Assembly (NCBI GenBank): GCA_002238945.1
Contig: MPNI01000002.1
Coordinates: 72,855 to 136,854 of the forward strand
Source of the DNA: Proteobacteria bacterium bin106
GTDB taxonomy: Bacteria > Bdellovibrionota_B > Oligoflexia > Oligoflexales > Bin106
Direction: 5' to 3'
Length of the DNA stretch: 64,000 nt
The notes below the pieces were generated by a model that was not told where the DNA came from, searched no databases, and saw only the letters and a list, made by a program, of their open reading frames with translations. Shown here piece after piece: positions 665-54,496 of this stretch (the first letter of the stretch is position 1; each line of letters begins with the position of its first letter). The translations under genes were made by a program, and so were the position numbers.

Positions 665-1450
665 ATGTCTTTTTTTCACATCATATGTCTAGTATGTGCT
701 TTGTTAGCTTTTCCTAATTTTTTACATGCTGCCCAAAGATATGGCACTGTTTCACCTTTACGTTGGGACACTAACAACACCTGCACTCAAAGTATCAATG
801 CACACATCCAAATCAGAGGCATTGACTTTGAAGCTGGTGCTCATACCTCTCGTTTTTTTGCTCAACAACCAGCCAAAGAACCCTTTCAAACAGAACTCAC
901 AGCATACGAGCCCTATGTTGGTGTATTCAGCTTCCATGGATCAAACACATCAAGTCATCCCTATAATTTTGAAAACTATCCGTTTTATATCCATCACATA
1001 GCTCCTTTTATTATCTATAACGGCATGATTTTTAGTGGAAACCAACAAGCAGATGGATCTTTTCAGCCTCTTAGTGCCACATTTGCTGCTTTAGCTGACT
1101 ACCCAGGAGTATTGGATGTGGTCTTGCACATATCCTTCCACCCCACCTTAACCCCTCAACCAGCAGTGGTGGGATATCGTTTAAATCTTCCGCTAAATAA
1201 TAGCAGAGAAGATGGACAGTGGTCTTTTGAGTTATGGGATAACTCACAGGTGTTCGTCAATTCCACATTTATCCTCCATGATTATGCCTGCTTGGTGTAT
1301 TACTATCCTACGTACTCACACGTCGTAAATGCATTTGGAAAAATACACCTAGGCACCACCAACTTGCCCAACTTGCCCAACTTGCCCAGCTTGCAAGGAA
1401 CTTTGGATAGCAACAATAGATGGCGCTTTTTGTTTGTAGTGGTAAGGTAG
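665..1450 (+). CDS. secreted hypothetical protein
   Basis: N-terminal signal peptide MSFFHIICLVCALLAFPNFLHA|AQ. In-frame 9-nt repeat encoding NLPNLPNLPSL near the C-terminus. No family recognised. Confidence 0.5.
   Translation: MSFFHIICLVCALLAFPNFLHAAQRYGTVSPLRWDTNNTCTQSINAHIQIRGIDFEAGAHTSRFFAQQPAKEPFQTELTAYEPYVGVFSFHGSNTSSHPYNFENYPFYIHHIAPFIIYNGMIFSGNQQADGSFQPLSATFAALADYPGVLDVVLHISFHPTLTPQPAVVGYRLNLPLNNSREDGQWSFELWDNSQVFVNSTFILHDYACLVYYYPTYSHVVNAFGKIHLGTTNLPNLPNLPSLQGTLDSNNRWRFLFVVVR
1361..1394. repeat. 9-nt tandem repeat (aacttgccc x3 plus a degenerate copy), in frame
   Basis: Read directly from the sequence; encodes (NLP)n in CDS 665..1450. Confidence 0.9.
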
Positions 1451-1485
1451 CTTATTTATTGATTTATGGGTTTATTGAGCTCTAG

Positions 1486-2238
1486 CTATTTCTTTGTAGG
1501 CACATCCATGTGTTTGATGATGTTATCAAGCTTTTTTTCAATGGATACAAGTCTTTTGTTGTAAACTTCTTCTTTATTTTGATCGTCGAGTTCAATGAAG
1601 TAGCTTGCCAGTAAGCCAGAAATACCACCATAAAAAGCCACACCATAAATCATCACCACAATGCCCAGTATGCGGCCATTAAAGGTGATGGGTACGACAT
1701 TGCCATATCCCACAGTCGTAAGCGTGACAACACTCCACCACACAGCATCCAGTGGTGTTTTAATGCTCGAGTCAGGCGCATTTTCAAAATAGAGAATCAA
1801 CGTCGAAGTCAGAAAGATAATTAAGCTGGTAATAAGAGCAATCAACACCGGAGCTGAGACATTATTGTTTTTGATCAAATAGGGAATTATACCCCTAAAA
1901 ACCTTTAAAGAACGCAACAAATAATATAATCGTGCTAAGTGAGAAAGACGTCCTAAGCGGAAAACATCAAACCAAGCCATACAAGATAGCAGATCCAACC
2001 ATCCACCTTGCTTAAAAAAATACACTTTGCGAGATGAGGCGCGTTTGAGGCGATAGAAAAAATCCATCAAAAAAACAACACATAACAAACGATCAAAACC
2101 CAAGGCTAAAGCTCTTGAAGCCTCAGCCTTACCTTCTAAAGTAAGAGGGACAAGATTGATCAAGCTCACCAGCGATAAAATACCCACAGCGAGTTCATAA
2201 ATGACCTGTTTTTTGCGAAAAAGCTCCATTCGTGGCAT
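1486..2238 (-). CDS. 6TM voltage-gated-type K+ channel
   Basis: K+ selectivity filter TLTTVGYG. S4-like helix FRLGRLSHLARLYYLLRSLKVFR with a basic residue at nearly every third position. S5-pore-S6 layout. Confidence 0.85.
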   Translation of the reverse strand: MPRMELFRKKQVIYELAVGILSLVSLINLVPLTLEGKAEASRALALGFDRLLCVVFLMDFFYRLKRASSRKVYFFKQGGWLDLLSCMAWFDVFRLGRLSHLARLYYLLRSLKVFRGIIPYLIKNNNVSAPVLIALITSLIIFLTSTLILYFENAPDSSIKTPLDAVWWSVVTLTTVGYGNVVPITFNGRILGIVVMIYGVAFYGGISGLLASYFIELDDQNKEEVYNKRLVSIEKKLDNIIKHMDVPTKK

Positions 2239-2266
2239 ACATGAACCTTACATCAACAATAAAAGC

Positions 2267-3115
2267 TTATTCATCCTCATCAGAAATGACGATTTCTGCG
2301 ATTTTCATGCGTGGAGAGGTGTTTTGTGATGCATCCACCTTTTCCACACTGGCACGGATCAACAACTTCACACCCGCAGAAGGACCAATGGTTTCTACAC
2401 GCAAAGACTCATCCTCTTGGAGCGGATAAAGAGCCTCAAGACTATCGAGTTCTTGGATATCATTGATTTCTTTGCGCACCAGTTCCATGATGGTTTTTTC
2501 TTTAGAAAAAGCCATATTCGATCCCAAACAATCCCCATTCATACGAAAATAAGCCGTAGGTGATGGCATATCAGCTATGAGAGTTAGGATGATTTTACGA
2601 ATCTCAGCGAGTCGTCCAGCATACTGAGATGAGGTTTTATCCATGGCATCAAGAGCTGAGTTAAAAAGAGAGGCAAATTGAGAAAGCTCATCAAAACCAC
2701 TCATCACCAAACGTTTATGCAGTAACCCATGACTATGACTATCTAAAACAAAACGCCTTAAAGAATTCAGACGTGTCACCACATGCTTTTTTAAAGTGCT
2801 CATCCCAATGGCAAAAAGCAACATAACCAGCACAGCTGATATCACCATCAGCAAATACATTTGATAGCGGTAATTTTCAAAATCTTTAAGAATGGTTTGC
2901 CCTCTGGTTTGCAGAGCAGCAAGCTGTAAAGCAAGCTCGTTGGTCATGTGATCTTGCAGATGTTGAGCGGGAACAGCCGCAAGTGTCAGTAAACCAAGGG
3001 ATTTTTCCAGATTTTGAAAGATTATGCTCTGATTGATGTAATTGATCATCATCATGGCAGCCAGAAGGATCATAGCAGCCATAAATAAAAATGTGATACG
3101 TGTGCGTAATTTCAT
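2267..3115 (-). CDS. membrane protein with two TM helices, a HAMP domain and a PAS-like C-terminal region; no recognisable output domain
   Basis: TM1 ITFLFMAAMILLAAMMMI, TM2 MYLLMVISAVLVMLLFAIGM. HAMP-like segment RLNSLRRFV...GFDELSQFASLFNSALDAM. The C-terminal ~120 aa has a PAS-like start (PSPTAYFRMNGDCLGSNMAF). Confidence 0.55.
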   Translation of the reverse strand: MKLRTRITFLFMAAMILLAAMMMINYINQSIIFQNLEKSLGLLTLAAVPAQHLQDHMTNELALQLAALQTRGQTILKDFENYRYQMYLLMVISAVLVMLLFAIGMSTLKKHVVTRLNSLRRFVLDSHSHGLLHKRLVMSGFDELSQFASLFNSALDAMDKTSSQYAGRLAEIRKIILTLIADMPSPTAYFRMNGDCLGSNMAFSKEKTIMELVRKEINDIQELDSLEALYPLQEDESLRVETIGPSAGVKLLIRASVEKVDASQNTSPRMKIAEIVISDEDE

Positions 3116-3123
3116 GGCTGCTC

Positions 3124-3780
3124 CTAGGAGATACTCGCTAGTTTTTGAATATCCTCTGAGCTTCCCACTAACACCAACTTATCCACACTTTGAATAATCT
3201 CTGTAGCCTTAGGCGATGCAATAACCATATCTCCTCGATAAAGAGCTACCACACTGACGTTATAACGATTACGTAATTTAAGATCTTGAAGAGATTTATT
3301 GACAAAACGCTGCGGGGTACTGATCTCAGAAAGTCTCAAATCATGACCAAGATTAAACTGCTCCAATAAATACGGCTGAGACAGACGTTCAGCTAAACGC
3401 CTCCCCAGCTCTTCTTCAGGATTGATCACCTCATGAGCTCCCACAGAGCGCAATACCTTTTCATGTAATGCATGAATACCACGAGAAATAATACGAGCAC
3501 AGCCAATCTGAGAGAGCAAAGCTGTGGTGAGAATTGATGCTTCAAGAGAGCTCGCTCCAATCCCCACAACCACACAAGAAAACTTTTGGATCTCCAACTC
3601 CAAAAGACTATCTTTATCTGTGGTGTCACTTTGCACCGCTGCTGATACTTCACTGGAAATCTCCTCGATAAGCTCTTTCTTGCTATCGATGACAAGCACA
3701 GGATAGCCTTTCTGAGAGAGAGTTCTAGCCACAGAGCTACCAAAACGTCCGAGGCCAATAACAGCAAATGCATGAGTCAT
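3124..3780 (-). CDS. trkA: K+ uptake regulatory subunit TrkA/KtrA (RCK_N + RCK_C)
   Basis: Rossmann motif AVIGLGRFGSSVARTL and a C-terminal TrkA_C-like segment. I prefer the ATG at 3780 (MTHAFAVIG) because AGGAG lies 8 nt upstream; the ORF track starts at 3807. Confidence 0.85.
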   Translation of the reverse strand: MTHAFAVIGLGRFGSSVARTLSQKGYPVLVIDSKKELIEEISSEVSAAVQSDTTDKDSLLELEIQKFSCVVVGIGASSLEASILTTALLSQIGCARIISRGIHALHEKVLRSVGAHEVINPEEELGRRLAERLSQPYLLEQFNLGHDLRLSEISTPQRFVNKSLQDLKLRNRYNVSVVALYRGDMVIASPKATEIIQSVDKLVLVGSSEDIQKLASIS

Positions 3781-3814: not shown

Positions 3815-3844
3815 CACTCAACCGCACTCAACCGCACTCAACCG
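3815..3844. repeat. 10-nt tandem repeat (cactcaaccg x3) spanning the trkH stop codon
   Basis: Read directly. The trkH TGA (3838-3840) lies inside the third copy. Confidence 0.9.
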
Positions 3845-5958: not shown

Positions 5959-6167
5959 AAAAGAGAGTGCTTTTCAAAAAATATAATCTATAAAGCCGCT
6001 TTTTTCATGTTATCCTCAAGAGTTTACACAATTTATTTTGATAAACGAAACAAAGCCCAGTGTCGTATTCGGCATGATTTTCCTGCAGAAAGCAACATAG
6101 ACCATCTCAGGCATGCTACTTTGATGCTGAAAAGTAGGGGACTCTCCACCATACGTGCGAGCTAGCT

Positions 6168-6452
6168 ATGCTGATATACACCTTGTGGTCACGATGCATT
6201 ATTGTTGCTCTTTTAGGAATCTTACTCAATGGTGTTATTCGCGGTGAACGCACCCTTTCCGATTACGTAGAGCTTAAAGAAAAAAGAGATCTGCTCTCAG
6301 AAGTAGTCGATAAGCTCGAAGCAGAAAGCCAAGCTATTAGCGTTGAGATTCATCGCATTCGTCACTCTCATCAATATGCTAAAAAGGTCCTGCGTAGCAA
6401 ATATCACATTATGGAAGATAACGAAGAGCTGATCTTCTTTGAAGATGAGTAA
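6168..6452 (+). CDS. ftsB: septum formation initiator family protein (FtsB/DivIC-like)
   Basis: 94 aa: one N-terminal TM helix followed by a coiled coil (LSDYVELKEKRDLLSEVVDKLEAESQAISVEI) and a tail ...KYHIMEDNEELIFF, typical of FtsB. Confidence 0.55.
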   Translation: MLIYTLWSRCIIVALLGILLNGVIRGERTLSDYVELKEKRDLLSEVVDKLEAESQAISVEIHRIRHSHQYAKKVLRSKYHIMEDNEELIFFEDE

Positions 6453-6743: not shown

Positions 6744-8216
6744 ATGAAGAAGTTAACCACAGAGTTTCGAGTGGGTATCTTCACCATTCTCTCCATTGCT
6801 GCTTTAAGTTATATTCTCTTTCTTCTTAATTCCAAATATTTCAGCTCTAAAAAAACCATCTCTCACTACACCCTTACCAACAATGCAAAAGGGGTTGTGA
6901 ACATGACAAATGTAAGAGCTGGTGGTGTGACCGTAGGACAGGTTACAGGCATTAAGCTGAAAGGACAGATGACACAGATCTATTTTGCCATTGATAGCAG
7001 CATCCTTATTCCCGAAGGATCAAAGATGGAACTACGTACCCGTGGTTTACTCGGTGAAACCTTCCTTGAGGTGGTAAGAGCTCCTGATTCAGGAAGATAT
7101 ATTGCCGAAGGAGATCTGGTTCCCATGAACACCCAATTTGTGGATTTCTCGGATTTGATCCGTATCATTGGCAGTATTGCTGTGGATGTGAAACATGTCA
7201 CAGAATCCTTTTCCAACTTGGTCAAAAAAGATTCCCATGGAAAAAGTCGGATTGAAACCGTTTTTGATGGCGTAGAACAATCCACCACCGATCTCAGACG
7301 TATCATTCAAAGCAATGAAGCTCAGGTAAAAAAGATACTCAGCAATATAAAAACCACCAGTGACCATCTTGTGGCCTATACCCAACAAGATCCTCTCAAA
7401 AATCTCAAAGAAGCTTCAGCCAAAATCGATGATTTCATCACAGATGCCAAAGGAGCTGTCACGGGACTTCAAGATATTGTGAGCGGGATGCAGCAAGGCA
7501 AAGGCACAGTGGGAAAATTACTCACCGATGAAGATCTTGCTGAAGACCTACGAGAAACAGCTGCAAAGATCCGTCAGGTGGTTTCTCCTAAGGAAGGATT
7601 AAGCATACAACTACAGTACAATAATGAATTCCGTTGGGGCTCTCACTCCCAGCATTATTTGCAAACTATTGTGAGTTTGCAAAAAAACACTTTCTATACC
7701 TTAGGCTTAACTGCTTATCCAGCTACCACCACCACCTCTAGTCGTATTGTTGCTAAAGAAAATGGACAAGAAGTTATAACCACACAAGAAGCTACCACAC
7801 AAAAAGACACCATCGGATTTCATCTTCAATGGGGACATCGTTTCAACCACTGGGCTTTTCGTCTCGGTGTGTTTGAAAACTCTGGAGGCTTAGCCACCGA
7901 TTTGCATCTGTTAGACAATCGGTTACGCTTCTCTCTAGAGGCTTTTCGTTTTAGCCAAAGCTCTCCGAAACGCTGGTTAGCGCAGTTTAAGTTTTATGGG
8001 TTTTGGTACTTTCTTCCCCATGTTTATGCTTCTTTTGGACTCGCTGATATCAGTGGACGTGGCCAAACAGAAAACCCCACCGATACATCCTCCCATAACA
8101 ACAACAATAACATAGGATCATCCATAGAGAATATGAGCCCATTTGTTGGCGCTGGATTCCATTTCAATGATGCTGACATCAAACGTTTAACCAGCTCAGC
8201 AGCTTTGATGTTTTGA
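6744..8216 (+). CDS. MCE/MlaD-family protein with a long helical region and a beta-rich C-terminal domain
   Basis: N-terminus MKKLTTEFRVGIFTILSIAALSYILF and MCE core VRAGGVTVGQVTGIKL...LRTRGLLGETFLEV. The C-terminal ~190 aa have alternating aromatic/hydrophobic patterns and end in ...AALMF. Confidence 0.7.
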   Translation: MKKLTTEFRVGIFTILSIAALSYILFLLNSKYFSSKKTISHYTLTNNAKGVVNMTNVRAGGVTVGQVTGIKLKGQMTQIYFAIDSSILIPEGSKMELRTRGLLGETFLEVVRAPDSGRYIAEGDLVPMNTQFVDFSDLIRIIGSIAVDVKHVTESFSNLVKKDSHGKSRIETVFDGVEQSTTDLRRIIQSNEAQVKKILSNIKTTSDHLVAYTQQDPLKNLKEASAKIDDFITDAKGAVTGLQDIVSGMQQGKGTVGKLLTDEDLAEDLRETAAKIRQVVSPKEGLSIQLQYNNEFRWGSHSQHYLQTIVSLQKNTFYTLGLTAYPATTTTSSRIVAKENGQEVITTQEATTQKDTIGFHLQWGHRFNHWAFRLGVFENSGGLATDLHLLDNRLRFSLEAFRFSQSSPKRWLAQFKFYGFWYFLPHVYASFGLADISGRGQTENPTDTSSHNNNNNIGSSIENMSPFVGAGFHFNDADIKRLTSSAALMF

Positions 8217-8375
8217 TTTAAGGAAAACTCTATATTTGATGTTGTATTCTGTATCGTAAACATTATATTGCGGGTATCTTTGCTAGACATAAGACTCAAA
8301 AAACACAACTGACATCCTATCCCTTCTACAAAACACATAATAAAAACACAAAAAAAAAGGTTGAGGCATAGCACT

Positions 8376-11013: not shown

Positions 11014-11881
11014 GCACTCCACTCAATCTATTTTTCTTGTGGCCACAATTCTTGCTGTATTCTGCTCGGTGTTAGTGAGTAGTGCTGTGGTGTTGTTAGC
11101 TGACAAGCAAGAAAAGAACATGTTGCTCTTTAAACGCTCAAATGTGTTGGTTGCAGCAGGTTTAACAGTGGCTAACGATCAGGTAGAAGAGGTTTATGAG
11201 GCAACTATTGAAAAACGTTTTGTGGATCTCAGCAAAGGCACCTACACCAAAGCTCCTGATGATCCCACTTTTGATTCTGTGGATGCAGCCAAAGAGCCTG
11301 CTTGGATGGAAATTATCCCAGCCAAAAAAGATGTAGCACGCATCAAAAGACGTTCTCGGATCAGTGAGGTGTATTTTTTTCGTGCTACAAGACTTCCTGA
11401 GGGTTTTCAAGAAAGACCCGACAACAGTACCAACAAAGCAGATGATGGGGATAAGGATAAAGATAAAGATAAGGATGAGAATAAGGATACCATCACCAGT
11501 ATTATTTTACCGCTACGAGGCAAGGGATTATGGTCCACTATGAAAGGATTTCTGGCTTTAGATCCCACATCTTTGGTGGTTAAAGGATTGAGTTTTTATT
11601 CCCATGGTGAAACCCCGGGACTTGGTGGAGAAATTGATAATCCTCGCTGGCGGGCTCAGTGGCCTGGTAAGCGCATTTATAATGATCGTGGTGATGTGGC
11701 TATTAGGGTTTTAAAAGGGCAGGTACCAGCAAATGATCCAAGGAAAAACTATCATCTTGATGGCCTTTCTGGTGCCACTTTAACATCCAATGGAGTGACG
11801 ATGATGATGGTGTATTGGCTGGGTGAAAGTGGCTATCAGCGATTTTTAAAAGAGCAACAAAAGCAAGGTTGGCCGTTATGA
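11006..11881 (+). CDS. nqrC: Na+-NQR subunit C (with a KD-rich insertion)
   Basis: N-terminal TM helix, FMN-attachment region [14 protein letters not shown], and operon position. Contains the insertion [18 protein letters not shown]. Confidence 0.85.
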
Positions 11882-12532: not shown

Positions 12533-12556
12533 AACAACACAACAACACAACAACAC
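12533..12556. repeat. 8-nt tandem repeat (aacaacac x3) in the nqrD-nqrE spacer
   Basis: Read directly. Confidence 0.9.
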
Positions 12557-12574
12557 AAAAAGGAACCTCTTGCG

Positions 12575-14483: not shown

Positions 14484-14551
14484 GATAGATAAAAATAGCA
14501 TAAACACAACAAGCTGATCTTAAAATTCACATTAACAATAACAGTAGAAGT

Positions 14552-14575
14552 AAACTTAAACTTAAACTTAAACTT
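14552..14575. repeat. 6-nt tandem repeat (aaactt x4) upstream of apbE
   Basis: Read directly. Confidence 0.9.
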
Positions 14576-14589
14576 AAAAAAGCCCTCAC

Positions 14590-15795: not shown

Positions 15796-15894
15796 TTTTA
15801 ATTTTTTATAGCTAGCCTAAAACGAGCCTAAGCAAGCTCTTATCCTAACTGAATTTTCATATCACATTTTTCATCTGCTACGGTGTGTCTTTCT

Positions 15895-21468: not shown

Positions 21469-21799
21469 TAATTTGACAGCCATCTTCTATGTCTCATCTA
21501 TTTTCTCTTGAATGATCTTCGCTTTCATCCAAAGAGCTAAGCATTGTCTTAAGCGGCAAGTTATCTGCTCATCTTGCAAAATCCTTCTCCACAGTGTATA
21601 CATAATCGAGCCATGTACTCATGTACAGGGCTCGATGTGAAAGCATGAACATTAAATGAACACTAAAAGAACCAAACACATGTAATGTAAGGAGTGTAAG
21701 ATGAAGTTAAAAACATACAACACTACTTACAACGCCTCCTAATAACATAAACAAGCAAAAAACAGACAAGCATACATATATGACATCATAGGACCAACT

Positions 21800-30486: not shown

Positions 30487-30530
30487 TTAAAATATTGATT
30501 CACGTCACACATGTTTAAATCACTGAACAG

Positions 30531-30566
30531 CTTATTGCACAACTTATTGCACAACTTATTGCACAA
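30531..30566. repeat. 12-nt tandem repeat (cttattgcacaa x3) containing the stop codon of the repeat lipoprotein
   Basis: Read directly. On the minus strand it reads gtt gtg caa taa x3, i.e. VVQ-stop three times in frame. Confidence 0.9.
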
Positions 30567-35586: not shown

Positions 35587-35610
35587 TTCTATAGCTAGTT
35601 CTATAGCTAG
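35587..35610. repeat. 12-nt tandem repeat (ttctatagctag x2) spanning the secA stop codon
   Basis: Read directly. The secA TAG (35607-35609) lies in the second copy. Confidence 0.85.
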
Positions 35611-38444
35611 GAAACATTCCTGCCACAACAATGTTTATACTTCTTTTTTGAACCACATGGACACGGATCATTACGACCCACCTTTTTTTCAGACTTACGT
35701 ACCACAGTTCCCAGACTTTTTTGAGACGAACTCTGACCCTCTGTCATAGCTCGTCTACCATCACTGTTATCTCCACCACCAGCTCCATGATAAGATACAC
35801 GCTTATCAAGATCCAAGTCCGCTGTTTTCTTATTAAGAATCTTGCGAGCTTTTTTGGGAAGAGTGTTTAAAGCATCGCTGAGTAACGCTTGAGTCGTTGG
35901 ACTCACCTCAGCTGTATCTTGCTGCTGTTCTTGCTGTTCTTGTTCTCCTTGTTGTTGCTGCTGTTCTTGTAAGGCAGCCTCTTTAGCACGCACAATTTCT
36001 TGGCGTGGAGGCACAGATAACAAAAAGCGGCTTATCTCACGATTGATGGTATCCATCAATCGGCTAAATAATTGATAAGCTTCTTTTTTATACTCCTGAA
36101 GAGGATCCCTTTGCCCATAACCACGTAATCTTACCGCATCTTTCAAACCATCCATATCCAAGAGATGACTCTTCCATTTCACATCCACTATTTGCAAATA
36201 CACCGACTGAGAAAGAGAATGGATTTCTTTAAACTCTTTAAGCACATCAAGTACATCGTCACATTTTTTATGAAGGTCCTGTTTGAGTATATCAAGAAAA
36301 GACTCCTCATCTTGAGGTAATGGTGCCGAACGTGATACATCGTCTTTGCTTCCTAAAATCACAGGAACGTAATGAAAGAGCTCCTGAGCCTTCTCTCTCA
36401 TTTTAGCTAAAGGCCAGCTGTCACGTTCTTCTTGATCATCTTTGAGCTGTTTTGGCACTAAAGAAGAATCGTGCGTATCTTTATCCATCGCTTGAAGCTC
36501 TTTAACCATGGCAGCATCTTCGAGTAACTCTGCTGCCATACGATCCACAGCATCAAACATCACCTCAGCAAAGTCCATTTCACCTCTAAGAGCCTCACCA
36601 CGTCTTTGATAAATAATCGTGCGCTGAGTGTTCATCACATCATCGTATTCTAGAAGATGCTTTCTTGATGAAAAGTTTTGTTCTTCCACACGTTTTTGAG
36701 CTTTTTCAATAGCCCGTGACACCATGGATGATTCAATAGCTGCACCACCTGTAAGACCCATGGTTTTCATAATTCCTGATAAACGATCTGAAGCAAAAAT
36801 ACGCATCAAATCATCTTCTAAAGACAGATAAAAACTGCTTTTTCCAGGATCACCTTGACGGCCTGAACGCCCCCTCAGCTGATTATCAATACGACGTGAT
36901 TCATGACGCTCTGTACCGATAACCAACAAACCACCTAAAGCTAAGGTTTCATCGCTTAACTGAATATCCGTTCCTCGACCTGCCATATTGGTAGCAATGG
37001 TGACATGTCCGCGCTCTCCAGCATGAGCAATAATATCCGCCTCACGAGAATGGTTTTTGGCATTAAGAATCTCATGAGGAGTGCCCTTATCTTTAAGAAG
37101 AGATGATAACAGCTCTGATTTTTCCACCGATGTTGTTCCTACCAGAACCGGCTGACCACGATGCGATTCTTTGGCAATCTGAGCAGCAATAGCTTCAAAT
37201 TTCTCAGAAGCTGTACGATACACCACATCCACCATATCCTGACGAATAATGGGCTTATTGGTGGGAATAACGACCACATCGAGATTGTAAATCTTCTTAA
37301 ACTCCACAGCCTCTGTATCAGCCGTACCTGTCATGCCAGAAAGAGTAGGGTACATGCGAAAGAAATTCTGAAAGGTAATACTCGCTAGAGTTTGTGTCTC
37401 TTTTTGGACCTCCACACTTTCTTTAGCCTCAAGGGCTGAATGCAAACCATCACCATAACGCCTACCAGGCATCAAACGCCCGGTGTGTTCATCGATGATC
37501 ATCACCCGGTTTTGCTGAACCACATAATGCACATCCTTTTTAAATAACACCTCAGCTTTAAGCGCCTGATGAATATGATGCAATAAATGTGCATGGGAAA
37601 GATCAAACATATTGGCTATCTTTAAACGCTTTTCTATACGTGATACCCCATCATCTGTTAAAGAAACACTACGGGATTTTTCATCGATCACATAATCACT
37701 GTCTTTGCGTAATCCTGTAATGGTCCGTCGCGCAAGATGATAACTGTCCTGCTCACCTTCAGCATCACCCGAAATAATCAAAGGAGTACGAGCCTCATCG
37801 ATAAGAATAGAGTCCACTTCATCCACAATGGCAAAATGAAAAGGCCTTTGTACCAAGTGATCCACATCCACTTTCATATTATCGCGCAAATAATCAAAGC
37901 CAAACTCGTTGTTAGTACCATAGGTGATATCAGCAGCATAAGCCTTCTTACGCTCCGCATAAGACAAACCCTGAACAATCACCCCAACCGATAAACCCAG
38001 AAAAGTATATGTGGCTCCCATCCACTTAGCATCACGCTGAGCTAAATACTCATTAACCGTAACAACATGAGCACCTTTGCCGGTTAAACCTCTTAAATAA
38101 CACGGCAAAGTTGCTGTAAGTGTTTTACCTTCACCGGTTTTCATCTCAGCAATATTGCCATAATGCAAGACAATACCACCAGCAAGTTGTACAGGGAAAT
38201 GTCTTTGAGAAAGAACACGTTTGCTCGCTTCACGACATACCGCAAACACTTCACATAACAGATCATCAAGAGATTTTCCGTTACGCAACAATTCTTTGAA
38301 ATAAGGCGTTTTAGCTTGCAACTCCTCATCGCTCAAAGCACTGATAGTAGGCTCTAAAGCCTCTATGTTTTTGACTAAAGGAGATATCTTTTTTTTAAGA
38401 ATTCTATCGTTTTGGGTGCCAAACAATCGCTGCATAAAAGCCAT
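35607..38444 (-). CDS. secA: preprotein translocase ATPase SecA
   Basis: MAFMQRLFGTQNDRILKK N-terminus, DEAD-like motifs (MKTGEGKTL, DEVDSILIDEARTPLIISG), TNMAGRGTDI, and the C-terminal Zn finger CPCGSKKKYKHCCG. ATG at 38444 has AGGTG 6 nt upstream. Confidence 0.97.
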   Translation of the reverse strand: MAFMQRLFGTQNDRILKKKISPLVKNIEALEPTISALSDEELQAKTPYFKELLRNGKSLDDLLCEVFAVCREASKRVLSQRHFPVQLAGGIVLHYGNIAEMKTGEGKTLTATLPCYLRGLTGKGAHVVTVNEYLAQRDAKWMGATYTFLGLSVGVIVQGLSYAERKKAYAADITYGTNNEFGFDYLRDNMKVDVDHLVQRPFHFAIVDEVDSILIDEARTPLIISGDAEGEQDSYHLARRTITGLRKDSDYVIDEKSRSVSLTDDGVSRIEKRLKIANMFDLSHAHLLHHIHQALKAEVLFKKDVHYVVQQNRVMIIDEHTGRLMPGRRYGDGLHSALEAKESVEVQKETQTLASITFQNFFRMYPTLSGMTGTADTEAVEFKKIYNLDVVVIPTNKPIIRQDMVDVVYRTASEKFEAIAAQIAKESHRGQPVLVGTTSVEKSELLSSLLKDKGTPHEILNAKNHSREADIIAHAGERGHVTIATNMAGRGTDIQLSDETLALGGLLVIGTERHESRRIDNQLRGRSGRQGDPGKSSFYLSLEDDLMRIFASDRLSGIMKTMGLTGGAAIESSMVSRAIEKAQKRVEEQNFSSRKHLLEYDDVMNTQRTIIYQRRGEALRGEMDFAEVMFDAVDRMAAELLEDAAMVKELQAMDKDTHDSSLVPKQLKDDQEERDSWPLAKMREKAQELFHYVPVILGSKDDVSRSAPLPQDEESFLDILKQDLHKKCDDVLDVLKEFKEIHSLSQSVYLQIVDVKWKSHLLDMDGLKDAVRLRGYGQRDPLQEYKKEAYQLFSRLMDTINREISRFLLSVPPRQEIVRAKEAALQEQQQQQGEQEQQEQQQDTAEVSPTTQALLSDALNTLPKKARKILNKKTADLDLDKRVSYHGAGGGDNSDGRRAMTEGQSSSQKSLGTVVRKSEKKVGRNDPCPCGSKKKYKHCCGRNVS

Positions 38445-39490: not shown

Positions 39491-39645
39491 CCCTCTCTGA
39501 TCCGTTAAAAACGATCTAACTCTCTTCGCTCATTCTCTCTATTTCGTCTATTGTTTTATCTCTCTTGTTTGCTCTCAAGTAACATCACCTAAGCCATCAC
39601 TTCGACAATAACACCTCTTCACATAATGAGAATTACACTCTCTCT

Positions 39646-39689
39646 CTCATTCATCTCTCATTCATCTCTCATTCATCTCTCATTCATAT
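39646..39689. repeat. 11-nt tandem repeat (ctcattcatct x4)
   Basis: Read directly. Lies in the spacer between the PP2C gene and the M23 peptidase gene. Confidence 0.9.
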
Positions 39690-41404: not shown

Positions 41405-41440
41405 CCCTACTGAACAATCATCATCTCAAGTAGCTATCTA

Positions 41441-41481
41441 TTATAGCTAGTCTGTTATAGCTAGTCTGTCATAGCTAGTCC
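41441..41481. repeat. 14-nt tandem repeat (ttatagctagtctg x2.9) spanning the RNase J stop codon
   Basis: Read directly. The TAG (41475-41477) lies in the third copy. Confidence 0.85.
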
Positions 41482-43247: not shown

Positions 43248-43377
43248 AAAAAAATATACAAGGTGAGAAAGGAGTATAGAATCATGCAGAACAACAGAAA
43301 GGAGATGCCACATGCTCTACGTTAACCCAATGATAGCTAATCCTATACAACTATTTTTGAGGGGTTGTAAAAAAAAC

Positions 43378-44946: not shown

Positions 44947-44972
44947 TTTTTTTCGCTAGTTTTTTTCGCTAG
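44947..44972. repeat. 13-nt tandem repeat (tttttttcgctag x2) in the 5' leader of the FHA/HD-GYP gene
   Basis: Read directly. Starts 13 nt upstream of the start codon at 44934. Confidence 0.85.
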
Positions 44973-45378
44973 TTTTATGCCACTTACAAAACACCATAAA
45001 CACAACAGATAATTGCTTTCGGCCTAACAACCGTACATACCTCGGCTTAATCGAGGCATAGATTTAACCCACAATGCTGGGTTAAAGACGCAAGGGTTAT
45101 GAAAACACACCTTTGGTCAAAAACAACCCCCACCATCAACCATTACAGCTAAAGTAATCTGCTATTTTTTGCTGATTATCTAACTTTTTTGCTTTTTTAT
45201 AATGACATCTCAAGCAAACCCACGGTTTTTTCCAACTGAACCCTAGGATCTTTGATTGACTCTCTTTGGTGCGCATAGTAGGGTGAGCCACTAGCCACGG
45301 TGAGGTTATTTGACGAACCGAGTGCTGGGTTCATTTGCTCATAACCTACAAAAAACATAAAAAAAAGGAGACGAAACT

Positions 45379-46950
45379 ATGATGCAACCAGCAAAACAGC
45401 TTCTGGCAAAAATAGTGTTAGTAAGAATTGTGATAACCACCTTTTATAAAAACATAACTGACAGTTTTTTGTGGCACAAACTTATACTTTCTCGTTTTGC
45501 AAGAATATGCCTCATACCTGTCGTTATCATAAGTGTATCGAGCTCACCATACGCACAAGCTGAACCCGAACTCGAAACAGAACTCTCTGAAGAAAATTAT
45601 TTTATCCCTGACTATCTCCCCGATTACCTTGTTCATGCTGCAACAAGCCCGCTAGCCCTTGGAGCAGCATTGCAGGTTTTTTCTCCAAAAATGCTACAAC
45701 CTCCTTTTATAAACATCCCTAAAACTGTCTTTAAAAGATCTGCACTTTATACCGCAGCAGCTTTAGGAGTGGGAGCATATGTTCATCATAAAACCACCGG
45801 CCAAGAGACAGCTTTAGATGCTGTGTGGATGAGTCATGGTGAACAAACTCACTCAAACGAGGGCGTTTGGTCTGAGGCAGCTCCCTCTGAGACCGACTTT
45901 CTAGCTGCTGGTAGCCCCAAAGAGCCCAAATTAGTGCCTGCAGCACCGCCACATTCTGATGCCGCAGATAACACACAAGATGTGCTGACTCTTTACAATA
46001 CACCTGTTAAAAGAATGTCTATGGCACTATCTGCTTCTTTAGCCTCTATATTGCCTTTGGTCTCAAATCTCACACAAACCACTTATGGTGCAAGCAATGT
46101 AGCTTTGCATAAAGAATTTTTTGTAAAAATGCTTAAAGCCTATAACCATTTTAATAACCTCAAAGCATCTCTTTTTACCATGCCCGCTTTACATCAAGCC
46201 TTACCTGAAAACATAGGCATCTTATATCGCTCACCTCACTCATTTGCTCTTGTGGAAACGTATGGCATCTTACAAAAAGTGAGTACTGCCTTAGATCTCT
46301 CACCTCAAGCTTTACAAAAAAATGCTCTCACTTGGAGCAATACCTCTTTAGAAGATAAAAAAGCTTTTTTAAACGCTTCTTACAAAGGCAACCATCCTGA
46401 AGGCTTAAAGGCTCATGACACTGCCACACAACTGCTTTTTACAAGCGTGCAACTTGAAGCCCTCTATGCCTTAGTATTTCCATTAGTCACCCGGCTTATG
46501 GCACAAAGAATGGATCCTAAGCAACAAGCATCTGGCAGAGAAACAAGAGCACTGATGAAATCTCTGGCTCTCAAAGAGCCCGTACTCAGTAGCCAGGATC
46601 AACAAGAGTTAGCTGTGGTCAAAGAATTTCAAAGCAAGCTGATTCAATTCATTATGAATGCCAACCAAGAAAGTCGTGCGAAACCAACGCAACCAACCCC
46701 CACAACCACCAGATCCACTCAAAATGGCCAAACGGTCATAACCGTGAGTTTAGGCGATGCGCAAGCTCCAACATTTCTTGAAAAAAAACCACCCACTCAA
46801 ACAAAAAACTCTCTTGGGCAGCAACAACTCAACAACATAGTCTCTGTGGAACAAACCAAAGGTATTCTTTACTCTGGCTCTTTTAAATACCTCAAACACT
46901 TCAAAAACACGTTACTGAACTATATAAGCAGTGATATAAGTAGTGAATAA
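45379..46950 (+). CDS. hypothetical secreted/membrane protein
   Basis: AAGGAG 7 nt upstream of ATG 45379. Hydrophobic segment ICLIPVVIISVSSSPYAQA|EPE. No family recognised. Confidence 0.45.
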   Translation: MMQPAKQLLAKIVLVRIVITTFYKNITDSFLWHKLILSRFARICLIPVVIISVSSSPYAQAEPELETELSEENYFIPDYLPDYLVHAATSPLALGAALQVFSPKMLQPPFINIPKTVFKRSALYTAAALGVGAYVHHKTTGQETALDAVWMSHGEQTHSNEGVWSEAAPSETDFLAAGSPKEPKLVPAAPPHSDAADNTQDVLTLYNTPVKRMSMALSASLASILPLVSNLTQTTYGASNVALHKEFFVKMLKAYNHFNNLKASLFTMPALHQALPENIGILYRSPHSFALVETYGILQKVSTALDLSPQALQKNALTWSNTSLEDKKAFLNASYKGNHPEGLKAHDTATQLLFTSVQLEALYALVFPLVTRLMAQRMDPKQQASGRETRALMKSLALKEPVLSSQDQQELAVVKEFQSKLIQFIMNANQESRAKPTQPTPTTTRSTQNGQTVITVSLGDAQAPTFLEKKPPTQTKNSLGQQQLNNIVSVEQTKGILYSGSFKYLKHFKNTLLNYISSDISSE

Positions 46951-46991
46951 GCAGCACCTATAAGTAAAAGTGATTTAAAAACTCATACACT

Positions 46992-49584: not shown

Positions 49585-51195
49585 TCATTCTAAATTTAAT
49601 GAAGCCACCATATCATCTGCCACCTTATCAAGCTTCATACCACGAGATCCCTTGATATACACCCATTGCCCGCCATACTCCAACCACTGTGTCATATAAT
49701 CCCTATACACCTCTGAGCTTAACAAATCATCCACTTTGGGATAATAGTGAATACATGCATTTTCCAAACCAGACACACGAGCAAAACCAGCCTTCATAGC
49801 CGCCCCTACCAACAACAAAGATGTATCTTTAAAAGAAAACCTTTCTGCAATCCACTCTCCCAACAAGCCATGTAGCGTACCAGAAGCAGCCCCCAAATCC
49901 AGCATATCTGCTAATATCAACACTTTTGTTGCTCTTGCAGCAAGCTTGTGAAAACTCAGTAACCCAGCACGCATACTCTGCAGATGAGCATTATAGCTAT
50001 CATCCACAACAGTCACACCCAAAGGCGATGATAGCAAACAAAACCGACCATTCAATGGCAAGAGCTTCAACTCAGAGCGTGCTTGTAACGCCTCTCCTCT
50101 ACCCAGTGCAAGTATCACAGCACAAGCAGCAGCCACATGCAAAGACGTGCTTTGATGCACACCTTTTACCGTAACCGTAACACTTACTGTATCACCTAGC
50201 TTGTCAGCTAGGTGATACAAAGAAGCAAGCTTTGAAGCTATGTTCATCTCCACAGTTGTGGATCTTGCTGCTACATCTAAATGACTGTGTTGAATACAGA
50301 CTTGAGCTTCTTTGCAAACCCCGAAACCATAACTCTGATCATGAGATAACATCACCTGCCTGATACGCTCATCATCCATCCATCCTACCCATTTAGCTTG
50401 CTTGCTATGATGGAACATTTCCAGTTTTCCAGCATAAAGATTGTCAAGAGATCTGATAGCTTGTAGATGACTTGGATAAACACAGGTAAGGACACACACT
50501 TGAGGACATGCCATCTTTAACAAAAAAGCAATATCTCCCTTGTGACGCATGCCCATTTCCACAATAAGATCATTGGTGGTTGGATGAGTTTGTAATAAGG
50601 TTTTAGCCACACCGATTTCATTGTTTTCATTGTTAACCGTTGCAGCTACCACATGACCTTGCCCCATCAACTCCATCAGCCATTTTTTCACATATTCTTT
50701 TAATGTGGTTTTACCAGATGATCCTGTAATAGCAATCACAGTGGTGTGTTTAAGGATCTGCCTACGATACACTCTACTAAGAACACAATACGCCTCTTTG
50801 CTGCAACGCACAGCTATGGCAACAACTTCAACTGGCTCACCTTGCTCACCTTGCTCATCAATCTCTTTTCTCATAGCTTTGATGTCATAGCGCTTGGGCT
50901 CATAAAAAAACCCACGCACTCCTTGCTGCACAGCTGCTGCTATAAAATCATGACCATCATAGTTCTTGCCAGCTAAAGGCATAAACACAGCATGATCAGC
51001 TAAATGACGGCTGTCTGTGGATAACCACTCTTGGGTGGGATCCACAATAAAGCTCGTTACAGAGCTAGTTTTAGGGCTAGTTTTAGGGCTAGCTTTAGGG
51101 CTAGTCTGAGCTCTTTGAGCCACACGGCTAGCACCTATAAAAACCTCTTCTTGTGCTAAAGCAGCCACAACATCAAAATAAGGCGTTTTATCCAC
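49585..51195 (-). CDS. murF: UDP-N-acetylmuramoyl-tripeptide--D-alanyl-D-alanine ligase (with an N-terminal PKTS repeat insertion)
   Basis: Mur ligase P-loop ITGSSGKTT, DDSYNA, and its position between murE and mraY. Contains the insertion SPKASPKTSPKTSS. Confidence 0.85.
   Translation of the reverse strand: MDKTPYFDVVAALAQEEVFIGASRVAQRAQTSPKASPKTSPKTSSVTSFIVDPTQEWLSTDSRHLADHAVFMPLAGKNYDGHDFIAAAVQQGVRGFFYEPKRYDIKAMRKEIDEQGEQGEPVEVVAIAVRCSKEAYCVLSRVYRRQILKHTTVIAITGSSGKTTLKEYVKKWLMELMGQGHVVAATVNNENNEIGVAKTLLQTHPTTNDLIVEMGMRHKGDIAFLLKMACPQVCVLTCVYPSHLQAIRSLDNLYAGKLEMFHHSKQAKWVGWMDDERIRQVMLSHDQSYGFGVCKEAQVCIQHSHLDVAARSTTVEMNIASKLASLYHLADKLGDTVSVTVTVKGVHQSTSLHVAAACAVILALGRGEALQARSELKLLPLNGRFCLLSSPLGVTVVDDSYNAHLQSMRAGLLSFHKLAARATKVLILADMLDLGAASGTLHGLLGEWIAERFSFKDTSLLLVGAAMKAGFARVSGLENACIHYYPKVDDLLSSEVYRDYMTQWLEYGGQWVYIKGSRGMKLDKVADDMVASLNLE
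51064..51111. repeat. 12-nt tandem repeat (gctagttttagg x3 plus a degenerate copy), in frame in murF
   Basis: Read directly; encodes (PKTS)n on the minus strand. The same 12-mer unit recurs at 54371-54394. Confidence 0.9.
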
Positions 51196-52696: not shown

Positions 52697-52734
52697 CGAC
52701 GATTATCTGTTATAAATCATCCGTTCTCAATGTG

Positions 52735-54138: not shown

Positions 54139-54144
54139 GGTTTT

Positions 54145-54256
54145 CTTTATGTGAGTTGCTTTATGTGAGTTGCTTTATGTGAGTTGCTTTATGTGAGTTG
54201 CTTTATGTGAGTTGCTTTATGTGAGTTGCTTTATGTGAGTTGCTTTACGTGAGTAA
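54145..54256. repeat. 14-nt tandem repeat (ctttatgtgagttg, 7 perfect copies plus 1 degenerate)
   Basis: Read directly. The array ends 6 nt upstream of the ATG (54138) of the lipoprotein gene. Confidence 0.95.
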
Positions 54257-54346
54257 CTGGCACAAAGTGTTTTTATATTGTTTATATACATGATCACAGT
54301 CATTATGCGTTGTTCTTTGGTTTTTTGATGTTATGGGTTCTTTTTG

Positions 54347-54406
54347 GCTAGTTTTATAGCTAGTTTTATAGCTAGTTTTAGGGCTAGTTTTAGGGCTAGG
54401 TTTACT
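54347..54406. repeat. 12-nt tandem repeat (gctagttttata x2, gctagttttagg x2, gctaggtttact)
   Basis: Read directly. Confidence 0.9.
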
Positions 54407-54444
54407 GTTTATTGCTGATAAGAAACTCAAAAAAAGCACTCTTA

Positions 54445-54496
54445 TAACTTATACCGATAACTTATACCTATAATTCATATCTATAACTCATATCAT
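54445..54496. repeat. 13-nt tandem repeat (ataacttataccg-like, x4, diverging)
   Basis: Read directly. Confidence 0.8.

What the first reader, a model, noticed from the sequence alone, without database searches (positions are those of the whole stretch)
1361..54496. Unusually high density of short perfect tandem repeats; unit length is a multiple of 3 only inside genes
I found at least 20 arrays by eye. Intergenic arrays: 10-mer 3815-3844, 8-mer 12533-12556, 6-mer 14552-14575, 12-mer 30531-30566, 12-mer 35587-35610, 11-mer 39646-39689, 14-mer 41441-41481, 13-mer 44947-44972, 14-mer 54145-54256, 12-mer 54347-54406 and 13-mer 54445-54496. Arrays fully inside CDSs have units of 6, 9, 12, 12, 12, 21 and 21 nt (11450-11488, 1361-1394, 20239-20274, 34410-34448, 51064-51111, 27504-27557, 31078-31716). 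The contrast between any length outside genes and only 3n inside is the footprint of a general slippage/duplication process filtered by selection. It makes many loci potential contingency (phase- or size-variable) loci. No dedicated mechanism is identifiable in this window.
Basis: seen in the sequence. Interest (0 to 1): 0.6.

Follow-up and report, generated by a model that had tools for sequence, protein, structure and literature searches.

The report
Dense young tandem repeats, sponge symbiont
This stretch of a sponge-symbiont bacterial chromosome carries about ten times more short, near-perfect tandem repeats (6-21 bases per unit) than other bacteria. Three of them differ in copy number between otherwise identical copies of the genome, so it is a real but not unprecedented case of a repeat-prone genome.

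Summary
There are 20 perfect arrays against 0.2-0.4 expected from Markov models. Strict arrays occur at 2.2 per 10 kb against 0.24 in 491 kb from 29 other bacteria, and none in 50 kb of E. coli.

Of 17 arrays in called genes, 16 have 3n units, against 5 of 17 outside genes (Fisher P=2e-4).

Non-coding DNA is 10% of the window but holds half the arrays. Repeats with 1-5 nt units are at baseline level.

Contigs from independent assemblies of Aplysina aerophoba metagenomes match the window exactly except at three arrays. These are the 11-mer (4 vs 3 copies), the 14-mer (8 vs 3) and a coding 9-mer just outside the window (4 vs 6).

Repeat-rich DNA is patchy among relatives: one of four has it.

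Best reading: lineage-specific, mismatch-repair-independent duplication and slippage of 6-21 nt units, filtered by selection. Size variation is shown; on/off phase variation is not supported. The closest precedent is the tandem repeats of archaeal Borg elements. One related 12-mer family (TTTTAKRGCTAG) at six loci is unexplained.

Novelty: a new member of a known kind.

The parts
1359..1394 (.). 9-mer CCAACTTGC x4.0, inside CDS 665-1450(+); encodes TNLPNLPNLPSLQ
3815..3844 (.). 10-mer CACTCAACCG x3.0, perfect; in the trkA-trkH spacer, straddles the trkH stop codon; absent from the trkH-trkA spacer of relative L069
6659..6695 (.). 19-mer x1.9, intergenic upstream of mlaD
7779..7812 (.). 15-mer x2.3 in the mlaD-domain CDS (TTQEATTQKDTI)
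8330..8358 (.). 13-mer x2.2, A-rich, in the mlaD-nqrA spacer
11449..11489 (.). 6-mer GGATAA x6.8 (82% match) in the nqrC CDS; encodes [14 protein letters not shown]
12533..12558 (.). 8-mer AACAACAC x3.2, perfect, in the nqrD-nqrE spacer
14551..14578 (.). 6-mer TAAACT x4.7, perfect, in the nqrF-apbE spacer
15804..15815 (+). Single copy of the TTTTATAGCTAG family unit, 9 nt after the apbE stop codon
20237..20276 (.).
21645..21672 (.). 11-mer x2.5, intergenic
27503..27552 (.). 21-mer x2.4, perfect, in the pyruvate kinase CDS; encodes RQHSQHS repeats
30527..30567 (.). 12-mer x3.4; straddles the stop codon of gene 30556-31965(-); JGI contig L046 ends inside it
31088..31685 (-). Older, diverged 21-nt (heptad KGGVLQG) coding array, about 27 units with 42/78/120-nt higher-order periods, in a putative lipoprotein; three assemblies break here
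34408..34448 (-). 12-mer x3.4 in the ABC transporter CDS (PSPITSPITSTITS); GCTAG family, inverted orientation
35587..35610 (+). 12-mer TTCTATAGCTAG x2.0; the secA stop codon is the TAG of the first unit; GCTAG family
35911..35969 (.). 9/12-mer imperfect array in the secA C-terminal linker (QEQQQQQGEQEQQEQQQ)
39643..39687 (.). 11-mer TCTCTCATTCA x4.1, perfect, 153 nt upstream of the M23 peptidase start. POLYMORPHIC: 4 copies in the window and JGI 3300027328; 3 copies in NCBI MAG GCA_026712765.1 and ENA ERZ27241788
39803..39831 (.). 11-mer TGAGCTAGAGG x2.6; straddles the PP2C stop codon
40728..40752 (.). 10-mer x2.5, intergenic
41431..41480 (+). 14-mer TAGCTAGTCTGTTA x3.6; straddles the RNase J stop codon; GCTAG family
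44947..44976 (+). 13-mer TTTTTTTCGCTAG x2.3, perfect; ends 12 nt upstream of the FHA-HD gene start
46922..46954 (.). 12-mer x2.8; straddles the stop codon of CDS 45379-46950(+)
50835..50857 (.). 9-mer x2.6, perfect, in the murF CDS (DEQGEQGEP)
51064..51105 (+). 12-mer GCTAGTTTTAGG x3.5 in the murF N-terminal region (TSPKASPKTSPKTS); GCTAG family
54145..54254 (.). 14-mer CTTTATGTGAGTTG x7.9, 6 nt upstream of the first ATG of the 449/467-aa ORF. POLYMORPHIC: 8 copies in the window, 3 in NCBI MAG GCA_026712765.1, at least 5.6 in ENA ERZ27241797 (that contig ends inside the array)
54347..54404 (+). 12-mer GCTAGTTTTATA/GCTAGTTTTAGG x4.8, intergenic; GCTAG family
54443..54492 (.). 13-mer x3.8 (83% match), the third array in the same 450-nt spacer
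59073..59128 (.). 12-mer x2.0 and 9-mer x2.4 in a lineage-variable hydrophilic insert of gyrB

Best explanation
The window is a chromosomal segment next to dnaA-dnaN-gyrB-gyrA from an uncultured bacterium found in Aplysina aerophoba sponge metagenomes. Its closest named GyrA relatives are Oligoflexales (Bdellovibrionota).

In this lineage, short tandem duplications of 6-21 nt arise and then expand or contract unusually often. The process is probably microhomology-primed strand slippage or template switching during replication or repair, which mismatch repair does not correct at this loop size (inferred).

Selection then filters the products:
- Inside genes, only in-frame units that encode hydrophilic, probably disordered, peptides in tolerant linkers survive.
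- Outside genes any unit length survives. Arrays pile up in spacers (10% of non-coding bases), especially across stop codons, where a duplication is invisible to the protein.

The arrays are young (mostly perfect), absent at the same places in relatives, and still changing. Copy-number change is the main difference between coexisting, otherwise identical genomes.

Shown: the excess, the unit-length spectrum, the frame filter, the polymorphism, and the patchy distribution among relatives. Inferred: the molecular mechanism, and whether the cause is a raised mutation rate or weaker purging.
For: - Excess over chance and over real genomes.
- The excess is limited to units of 6 nt or more; mono- to pentanucleotide repeats are at baseline.
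- 16/17 CDS arrays are 3n against 5/17 outside.
- Coding arrays give DK, PKTS, QEQ and SENTENT-type peptides. The gyrB arrays lie in an insert that differs in every relative.
- 10% of non-coding bases are in arrays; 6/18 non-coding arrays straddle stop codons (permutation P=0.008).
- Contigs from at least 9 datasets are 100% identical to the window over hundreds of kb of alignment. The only length differences are whole-unit changes at three arrays, against a single SNP inside the window.
- Some of these datasets are tissue layers of one sponge specimen, so the alleles probably coexist in one population.
- The flank left of the window is even denser, at 7.5 strict arrays per 10 kb.
- One relative (L041, GyrA 71% identical) has the same density with unrelated units. 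Three others (L040, L067, L069) are at baseline, and the arrays are absent from their matching spacers.
- Units are A-enriched on the sense strand: CDS 41% vs 27%, P<0.0005; intergenic 45% vs 36%, P=0.025. This matches the Borg tandem repeats, which show the same frame rule and within-population variation.
Against: - Only about 82 kb of this genome was examined. The 8.6 kb beyond dnaA has no array at all, so density is not uniform.
- Only 3 of about 40 arrays vary, and two haplotypes may account for all three differences.
- A short-read assembler working at small k could in principle collapse the 14-mer array. This is unlikely: the 40-nt allele is shorter than 55, the default final k of metaSPAdes (the assembler of the NCBI MAG is not known), and a k141-named contig carries at least 5.6 copies.
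- The baseline is 29 loci dominated by AT-rich Mollicutes-like MAGs plus one E. coli region, not a whole-genome survey.
- Related 12-mer units at six loci are not expected from random slippage.
- No replication or repair gene that could explain the phenotype was identified.
Confidence: 0.62

Rival explanations
1. Relaxed selection rather than a raised mutation rate. A host-restricted symbiont with a small effective population size fails to purge slightly harmful duplications, so ordinary slippage products accumulate in spacers and in housekeeping proteins.
For: - Housekeeping proteins carry low-complexity inserts and extensions, e.g. a roughly 60-aa N-terminal extension and an internal insert in GyrB, and inserts in SecA, MurF, PK and NqrC.
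- The population is nearly clonal: 1 SNP in 64 kb.
- The host is a sponge.
Against: - Most arrays are perfect, and three vary inside an almost SNP-free population. That points to fast turnover rather than slow accumulation.
- Frame and composition filters are still strict.
- Three relatives of similar GyrA distance are at baseline, but their lifestyles are unknown.
- This reading can coexist with the best explanation.
Confidence: 0.2
2. Selected contingency or 'rheostat' loci. The arrays in 5' regions are kept because copy-number changes tune or switch expression of host-interaction genes, such as the M23 peptidase and the 449-aa membrane/secreted protein.
For: - Both variable intergenic arrays lie upstream of genes on the sense side: 153 nt before M23, and 6 nt before the first ATG of the 449/467-aa ORF, whose N-terminus is hydrophobic.
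- A promoter-like site lies upstream of the 11-mer array.
Against: - No array sits between -35 and -10 hexamers.
- No out-of-frame array lies in a CDS.
- Arrays are equally common next to nqr, secA, RNase J and mur genes, which are not plausible switch targets.
- Classical 1-5 nt repeats are not enriched.
- The same density is seen inside housekeeping CDS.
Confidence: 0.1
3. A sequence-specific or dedicated process, such as a nicking enzyme, a recombinase or a tiny mobile unit, seeds arrays at a TTTTAKRGCTAG-like motif and perhaps elsewhere.
For: - The motif (up to 1 mismatch) occurs 17 times at 10 loci against 1.6 matches expected. Five of these loci are tandem arrays, and the units share T-run + TA[TG][AG]GCTAG.
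- About 7 of the 20 perfect arrays contain CTAG, although CTAG occurs only once per 474 nt.
Against: - There is no homology beyond the unit itself.
- The motif is absent from both flanks and from relatives.
- A metagenome-wide scan found only unrelated contigs.
- Most arrays (about 25) have unrelated units.
- No candidate enzyme is in the window.
- The motif was defined after seeing the data.
Confidence: 0.06
4. Nothing unusual: chance, composition or assembly artefact.
For: At a loose TRF threshold the excess over AT-rich genomes is only 1.5-fold.
Against: - 20 perfect arrays against 0.2-0.4 expected.
- 9-fold excess over the real-genome baseline for strict arrays.
- Identical arrays in independent assemblies made with different software.
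Confidence: 0.02

Closest known systems
Pervasive tandem repeats of Borg extrachromosomal elements of Methanoperedens (Schoelmerich et al. 2023, PMC9879509)
   Same: - Perfect head-to-tail repeats scattered through genes and spacers, about half of them in ORFs.
- Every ORF repeat is 3n, while only 14-38% of intergenic ones are (here 29%).
- Unit number varies within one population while no other indels occur.
- Repeats may start in the end of an ORF.
- Partial repeats flank the arrays.
- Units are A-rich on the coding strand.
- Coding repeats give hydrophilic, disordered segments.
- The trait is genome-specific.
   Different: - Here the replicon is a bacterial chromosome with dnaA, dnaN, gyrBA, nqr and mur genes.
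- Units are shorter (6-21 nt) and arrays much shorter.
- By the Borg criteria (at least 50 nt, at least 3 perfect units) only one array in 64 kb qualifies (0.16% of bases against 0.62%).
- Some units here are shared between loci, which is rare in Borgs.
Bacterial VNTR / minisatellite loci used for MLVA typing (e.g. Bacillus anthracis vrrA 12-bp in-frame repeat; Xanthomonas and Yersinia pestis VNTRs) - from general knowledge and the titles
   Same: Units of 6-20 nt, in frame when coding, whole-unit copy-number differences between near-identical genomes, slipped-strand origin.
   Different: In those species such loci are tens per multi-Mb genome. Here there are about 35 in 64 kb, and they fill a tenth of the non-coding DNA.
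Contingency (phase-variable) simple-sequence loci of Haemophilus, Neisseria, Campylobacter and Helicobacter (reviewed in PMC11868660; PMC2651432)
   Same: Hypermutable repeat tracts whose length differs within a population.
   Different: - Those tracts have 1-7 nt units placed in reading frames or promoter spacers, so that each change toggles expression.
- Here short units are not enriched, coding units are all in frame, and no tract sits in a promoter spacer.
Lineage-specific enrichment of 6-9 nt repeats in some prokaryotic phyla (PMC12699852; heptamers in Nostoc/Xanthomonas, PMC4692102)
   Same: A genome-specific excess of repeats with longer units against a background in which bacteria are on average not repeat-rich; repeats are indel hotspots.
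   Different: Those cases are dominated by one or a few motif families (e.g. G-rich heptamers). Here units are mostly unique, 8-14 nt, and A-rich.

Membership tests
Bacterial VNTR / minisatellite loci | Head-to-tail direct repeats with units of about 6 nt or more | tested here: met
   TRF and exact-period scan
Bacterial VNTR / minisatellite loci | Copy number differs by whole units between otherwise near-identical genomes | tested here: met
   Met for three arrays: 11-mer 4 vs 3, 14-mer 8 vs 3, 9-mer 4 vs 6. The other arrays were invariant in the contigs available.
Bacterial VNTR / minisatellite loci | Coding arrays keep the reading frame | tested here: met
   16 of 17 arrays in CDS are 3n; the variable coding 9-mer changes by 18 nt
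Contingency (phase-variable) loci | Tract placed so that a unit change shifts the frame or alters -35/-10 spacing | tested here: not met
   No credible non-3n array in a CDS. Variable arrays lie outside promoter-like hexamer pairs. The consensus scan is crude, so the promoter part is weak evidence.
Contingency (phase-variable) loci | Enrichment of long tracts with 1-5(7) nt units | tested here: not met
   Mono 14, di 1, tri 2, tetra 2 per 64 kb against 13.9, 0.9, 2.2, 1.4 in the baseline; longest homopolymer is 9
Contingency (phase-variable) loci | Reversible switching of a phenotype or of expression | not testable with these tools
   Needs expression data or reporters
Borg-type pervasive tandem repeats | All ORF repeats 3n; a minority (14-38%) of intergenic repeats 3n | tested here: met
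   16/17 and 5/17 (29%), compared
Borg-type pervasive tandem repeats | Unit number varies within a population while other indels are absent | tested here: met
   The only gaps in all contig alignments are whole-unit changes in arrays. Several datasets come from one specimen. Tested on assemblies, not on reads.
Borg-type pervasive tandem repeats | A-enrichment of units on the coding strand | tested here: met
   CDS 41% vs 27% (P<0.0005); intergenic 45% vs 36% (P=0.025)
Borg-type pervasive tandem repeats | Flanking partial repeats (seed sequences) | tested here: inconclusive
   Perfect runs end with a mean of 3.35 extra nt, but decayed end copies confound this measure
Borg-type pervasive tandem repeats | Regions of at least 50 nt with at least 3 perfect units, about 0.6% of the genome | tested here: not met
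   Only 54145-54247 qualifies, i.e. 0.16% of the window
Borg-type pervasive tandem repeats | Carried on a linear extrachromosomal element of Methanoperedens | tested here: not met
   Bacterial chromosome with dnaA-dnaN-gyrB-gyrA, nqr, mur and secA genes
Mismatch-repair-deficient mutator genome | Absence or decay of mutS/mutL | not testable with these tools
   Neither gene lies in the window, and the rest of the MAG could not be read
Dispersed short repeat elements (REP/MITE-like), considered for the GCTAG 12-mer family | Copies share sequence beyond the core, or have terminal inverted repeats or target duplications | tested here: not met
   Flanks of the seven loci share nothing. No copies in the flanks or in relatives.

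The most novel reading that the evidence does not exclude
A Borg-like, genome-specific repeat-generating process operates on a bacterial chromosome. It makes A-rich perfect tandem duplications of 6-21 nt at a rate high enough that they are the main variation inside one host's symbiont population. It builds disordered inserts into core enzymes (GyrB, SecA, MurF, PK, NqrC). It also has a sequence-specific component, the TTTTAKRGCTAG family amplified at six loci. This would point to a particular polymerase, nuclease or exonuclease defect shared with the repeat-rich relative (L041) and lacking in the repeat-poor ones.
Probability: 0.15. Interest if true: 0.7.

Novelty: new member of a known kind. 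Interest (0 to 1): 0.45.

Why it matters
- It gives a bacterial, chromosomal counterpart to the tandem repeats that were presented as a striking peculiarity of Borg elements. The trait is present in some members of a clade and absent in close relatives. That contrast makes the cause (a replication or repair gene gained or lost, or population size) findable by comparative genomics.
- Three VNTR loci distinguish otherwise identical symbiont genomes in a sponge, so they are ready-made strain markers.
- The arrays explain why several assemblies of this organism break at the same places.
- The result also warns that protein-length and gene-start differences between annotations of such genomes may be repeat or gene-caller effects.

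Tried and rejected
- GTDB genome scan with GyrA. The genome itself is not among the representatives, and the best hit was a 2.5-kb fragment (79% identity). The other 28 loci were reused as a baseline.
- Apparent gene-length differences between assemblies (261 vs 249 aa, 937 vs 934 aa, 612 vs 590 aa). I first took these for repeat changes, but the DNA is identical and only the start-codon calls differ.
- Metagenome-wide scan for two tandem units of the GCTAG 12-mer. It gave six unrelated contigs and nothing from this organism.
- Idea that CTAG or an extended palindrome is over-represented genome-wide. Rejected: CTAG observed/expected is 0.96 by a maximal-order Markov model.
- Idea that GCTAG arrays are duplicated promoters or terminators. 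The consensus scans found none.
- Rfam and tRNA scans found nothing in the window.
- Comparing two assemblies of the repeat-rich relative (L041 vs L042) for further polymorphism showed only two homopolymer indels.
- A preferred 12-nt unit as a mechanistic clue. Rejected: 12 is also the commonest period in the baseline.
- Remainder lengths of perfect runs as a microhomology signature. Judged confounded by decayed end copies.
- The Mrazek et al. 2007 survey of prokaryotic repeats could not be retrieved.

Full report
**What the window is.** The 64 kb encode ordinary bacterial chromosomal genes:
- trkA/trkH, an MlaD-domain protein, nqrABCDEF-apbE, rluD-like, a pyruvate kinase, an ABC exporter, secA;
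- an M23 peptidase, PP2C, RNase J, an FHA-HD protein, murD-mraY-murF-murE;
- a DAO-family oxidoreductase, gyrA, gyrB, dnaN and the end of dnaA.

GC content is 0.40-0.44. No tRNA or Rfam family is present. GyrA is 100% identical to a protein seen in NCBI, ENA and Logan assemblies. It is 71-72% identical to three unnamed metagenomic proteins, and 56-58% identical to proteins named Oligoflexales/Oligoflexus. Exact-protein look-ups place the sequence in NCBI MAG GCA_026712765.1, JGI metagenomes 3300027328, 3300027386 and 3300002160, ENA assemblies ERZ27241788 and ERZ27241797, and Logan assemblies of SRR6214543, SRR8092756, SRR8093131 and SRR10444678. Three of those runs are Aplysina aerophoba libraries made from different tissue layers of one specimen (bioRxiv 10.1101/2024.01.09.574914).

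- An exact-period scan gives 20 perfect arrays against 0.18-0.36 in Markov order 1, 3 and 5 simulations.
- Real genomes always exceed such models, so I built a baseline from the 29 unrelated bacterial gyrA loci returned (491 kb) and from the dnaA/gyrB region of E. coli K-12.
- Perfect arrays: window 3.1 per 10 kb, baseline 0.63.
- Strict TRF arrays (score >=50, >=90% match, period 5-30): window 2.19, baseline 0.24, E. coli 0 in 50 kb.
- Perfect arrays with at least 3 copies: 7 in the window against 3 in the whole baseline.
- At a loose threshold the excess shrinks to 1.5-fold, so what is unusual is the number of young, near-perfect arrays.
- The 9.3 kb to the left of the window is denser still (7.5 strict arrays per 10 kb). 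The 8.6 kb beyond dnaA has none.

**The frame rule.** I used gene calls attached to the public contigs, converted to window coordinates.
- 17 arrays lie in CDS and 16 of these have 3n units. The exception is a weak 2.1-copy 11-mer in the partial ORF at the window edge.
- 17 arrays lie outside CDS, of which 5 (29%) are 3n. Fisher P=2.3e-4.
- Non-coding DNA is 9.9% of the window but carries half the arrays: 27 per 10 kb against 2.9 per 10 kb. About 10% of all non-coding bases are in arrays.

This contrast is expected in general and is documented across prokaryotes (PMC12699852) and for Borg elements (PMC9879509).

**Further footprints of a selection filter.**
- Coding arrays encode hydrophilic low-complexity peptides: GDKDKDK in NqrC, RQHSQHS in pyruvate kinase, TSPKASPKTS in MurF, QEQQQQ in SecA, SENTENTD in GyrB.
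- The GyrB arrays lie in an insert that differs in length and sequence in each relative and is absent from E. coli.
- Six of 18 non-coding or edge arrays straddle a stop codon (trkH, the heptad protein, secA, PP2C, RNase J, ORF 45379-46950). The permutation mean is 1.9 (P=0.008). None straddles a start codon. A duplication that contains the stop codon leaves the protein unchanged.

**Unit spectrum.** Repeats with 1-5 nt units are at baseline frequency, and the longest homopolymer is 9 nt. The excess is confined to units of 6-21 nt, with non-coding units mostly 8-14 nt. From established knowledge of MutS, loops of that size are not mismatch-repair substrates.

**Polymorphism.** Across all contig-to-window alignments the sequences are 100.000% identical. 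The exceptions are one SNP inside the window (37574, JGI 3300027328), seven clustered SNPs outside it (65551-65920), and three length differences. Each length difference is a whole-unit change in a tandem array:
- The 11-mer at 39643 has 4 copies in the window and JGI 3300027328, and 3 copies in the NCBI MAG and ERZ27241788.
- The 14-mer at 54145 has 8 copies in the window and 3 in the NCBI MAG. A k141-named contig of ERZ27241797 runs at least 5.6 copies into it and stops.
- A coding 9-mer (TATATCATC), 2.5 kb left of the window, has 4 copies in both ENA assemblies and 6 in both JGI assemblies, an in-frame 18-nt difference.

The short alleles are shorter than the k-mers normally used for final assembly, so they cannot easily be collapse artefacts. 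This is an inference about assemblers, not a read-level test. Several contigs from different pipelines end inside arrays (30562, 39658, 39672, 54176). The alleles fit two haplotypes (6/4/8 and 4/3/3). The other arrays were invariant in the data available.

**Phylogenetic spread.** I fetched loci around the GyrA of four relatives.
- L041 (71% identity) has 3.09 strict arrays per 10 kb, with unrelated units, again mostly 12-16 nt.
- L040 (72%), L067 (72%) and L069 (66%) have 0.44-0.45.
- The trkH-trkA spacer of L069 has no array, and neither does the DAO-downstream spacer of L040 or L067. In the window, the DAO-downstream spacer has grown to 450 nt, about half of which is three arrays.

The arrays are therefore recent and the trait is lineage-specific.

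**Comparison with known systems.** The closest precedent I found is the tandem repeats of Borg elements. Shared features:
- perfect repeats in genes and spacers;
- all ORF repeats 3n, and 14-38% of intergenic ones 3n;
- unit number varying within a population while no other indels occur;
- repeats starting in ORF ends, with flanking partial repeats;
- A-rich units on the coding strand, and genome specificity.

I tested the A bias here. Sense-strand A is 41% in coding units against 27% background (P<0.0005), with T depleted. It is 45% against 36% in intergenic units (P=0.025). The differences are large, though. This is a bacterial chromosome, units and arrays are much shorter, and only one array meets the Borg criteria. 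It works like Borg repeats and like bacterial VNTRs. It is not a contingency-locus system in the strict sense (see membership table).

**An unexplained feature.** Units of six loci are variants of one 12-mer, TTTTAKRGCTAG:
- arrays at 34408 (inverted), 35587, 41431 (a 14-mer version), 51064 and 54347;
- a single copy at 15804;
- 44947 and 39803 also contain GCTAG.

With up to 1 mismatch the motif occurs 17 times at 10 loci against 1.6 matches expected, although CTAG itself is not over-represented. The loci share no flanking homology. They give no promoter- or terminator-like hits. They have no copies in the flanks, the relatives or the JGI metagenome collection. The motif was defined after the fact, so the statistics are indicative only.

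**Verdict.** The phase-variation and mismatch-repair parts are not supported. The mechanism is inferred, not shown. The finding is a new member of a known kind, of moderate interest.

Noticed in passing
window 15804-15815, 34408-34448, 35587-35610, 41431-41480, 44947-44976, 51064-51105, 54347-54404: Tandem arrays at separate loci use variants of one unit (TTTTAKRGCTAG). That is 17 matches at 10 loci against 1.6 expected. There is no flank homology and no copies in the flanks or relatives. Six of seven are on the + strand.
   Followed up: partly
window 3838, 30556, 35607, 39829, 41475, 46950 (stop codons): Six of 18 non-coding arrays straddle the stop codon of the upstream gene (permutation mean 1.9, P=0.008). 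None straddles a start codon. For secA the stop codon is the TAG of the first repeat unit.
   Followed up: yes
L077, 8.6 kb beyond the window's right end (window 64001-72596): The region on the other side of dnaA (PrkA kinase, small ORFs, a PDDEXK_9/AAA-ATPase-like gene; GC 0.39) has no tandem array at all, against 7.5 strict arrays per 10 kb in the left flank. It may be recently acquired DNA or a replichore effect.
   Followed up: no
window coordinates 65551-65920 (outside the window; L078 vs L077): Seven SNPs cluster within 370 nt of the PDDEXK_9/AAA-ATPase-like gene between the NCBI MAG and ENA ERZ27241788, while the rest of about 80 kb has one SNP. This suggests a recombination patch or a paralogue mix.
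   Followed up: no
window 62600-62951: Six DnaA-box-like 9-mers lie in about 350 nt spanning the dnaA-dnaN spacer and the adjacent end of dnaA, the probable oriC. Relatives have tandem DnaA-box arrays at the same place (L040 5893-6063, L041 5002-5193, L067 5640-5695). DnaA-box-like 9-mers are also in excess window-wide (58 vs 20 expected).
   Followed up: partly
window 30556-31974 (-): A 469-472-aa putative lipoprotein with about 30 heptads of KGGVLQG/KGGVGQG and higher-order 42/78/120-nt periods. It has no Pfam match. Three assemblies break inside it.
   Followed up: partly
window 58545-61358 (-), gyrB: GyrB is 937 aa. It has a low-complexity N-terminal extension of about 60 aa (if the annotated start is right) and a hydrophilic insert before the C-terminal domain. 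Relatives carry different inserts at the same site (up to 987 aa in L041).
   Followed up: partly
window 30562, 39658, 39672, 54176, 31155-31251, 17871: Contig ends of independent assemblies fall inside tandem arrays. Other ends recur at the same non-repeat positions in different assemblies (7746, 25844, 26210, 29436, 36643), hinting at coexisting variants there.
   Followed up: partly
L033 1-305: The Logan contig of SRR10444678 starts with a 305-nt inverted copy of window 5999-6303, probably an assembly fold-back artefact.
   Followed up: no
window 665-1450, 41475-43313, 55965-58505, 58545-61358: Different pipelines call different start codons on identical DNA (261 vs 249 aa; 612 vs 590; 846 vs 843; 937 vs 934). 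This mimics repeat-length polymorphism in protein tables.
   Followed up: yes
L058 2468-2491 and L059 4239-4262 (unrelated metagenome contigs): These two contigs appear to carry the same locus in opposite orientations. It holds a run of 12-mers whose units change stepwise (GGTTTTATCGAT, GGTTTTATCGGG, GTTTTATAGCTA, GTTTTATAGGTA).
   Followed up: no
window 43378-44934 (-): A 518-aa protein combines an N-terminal FHA domain (it also matches the YscD cytoplasmic FHA model) with a C-terminal HD-GYP-type HD domain. A perfect 13-mer array ends 12 nt upstream of its start codon.
   Followed up: no
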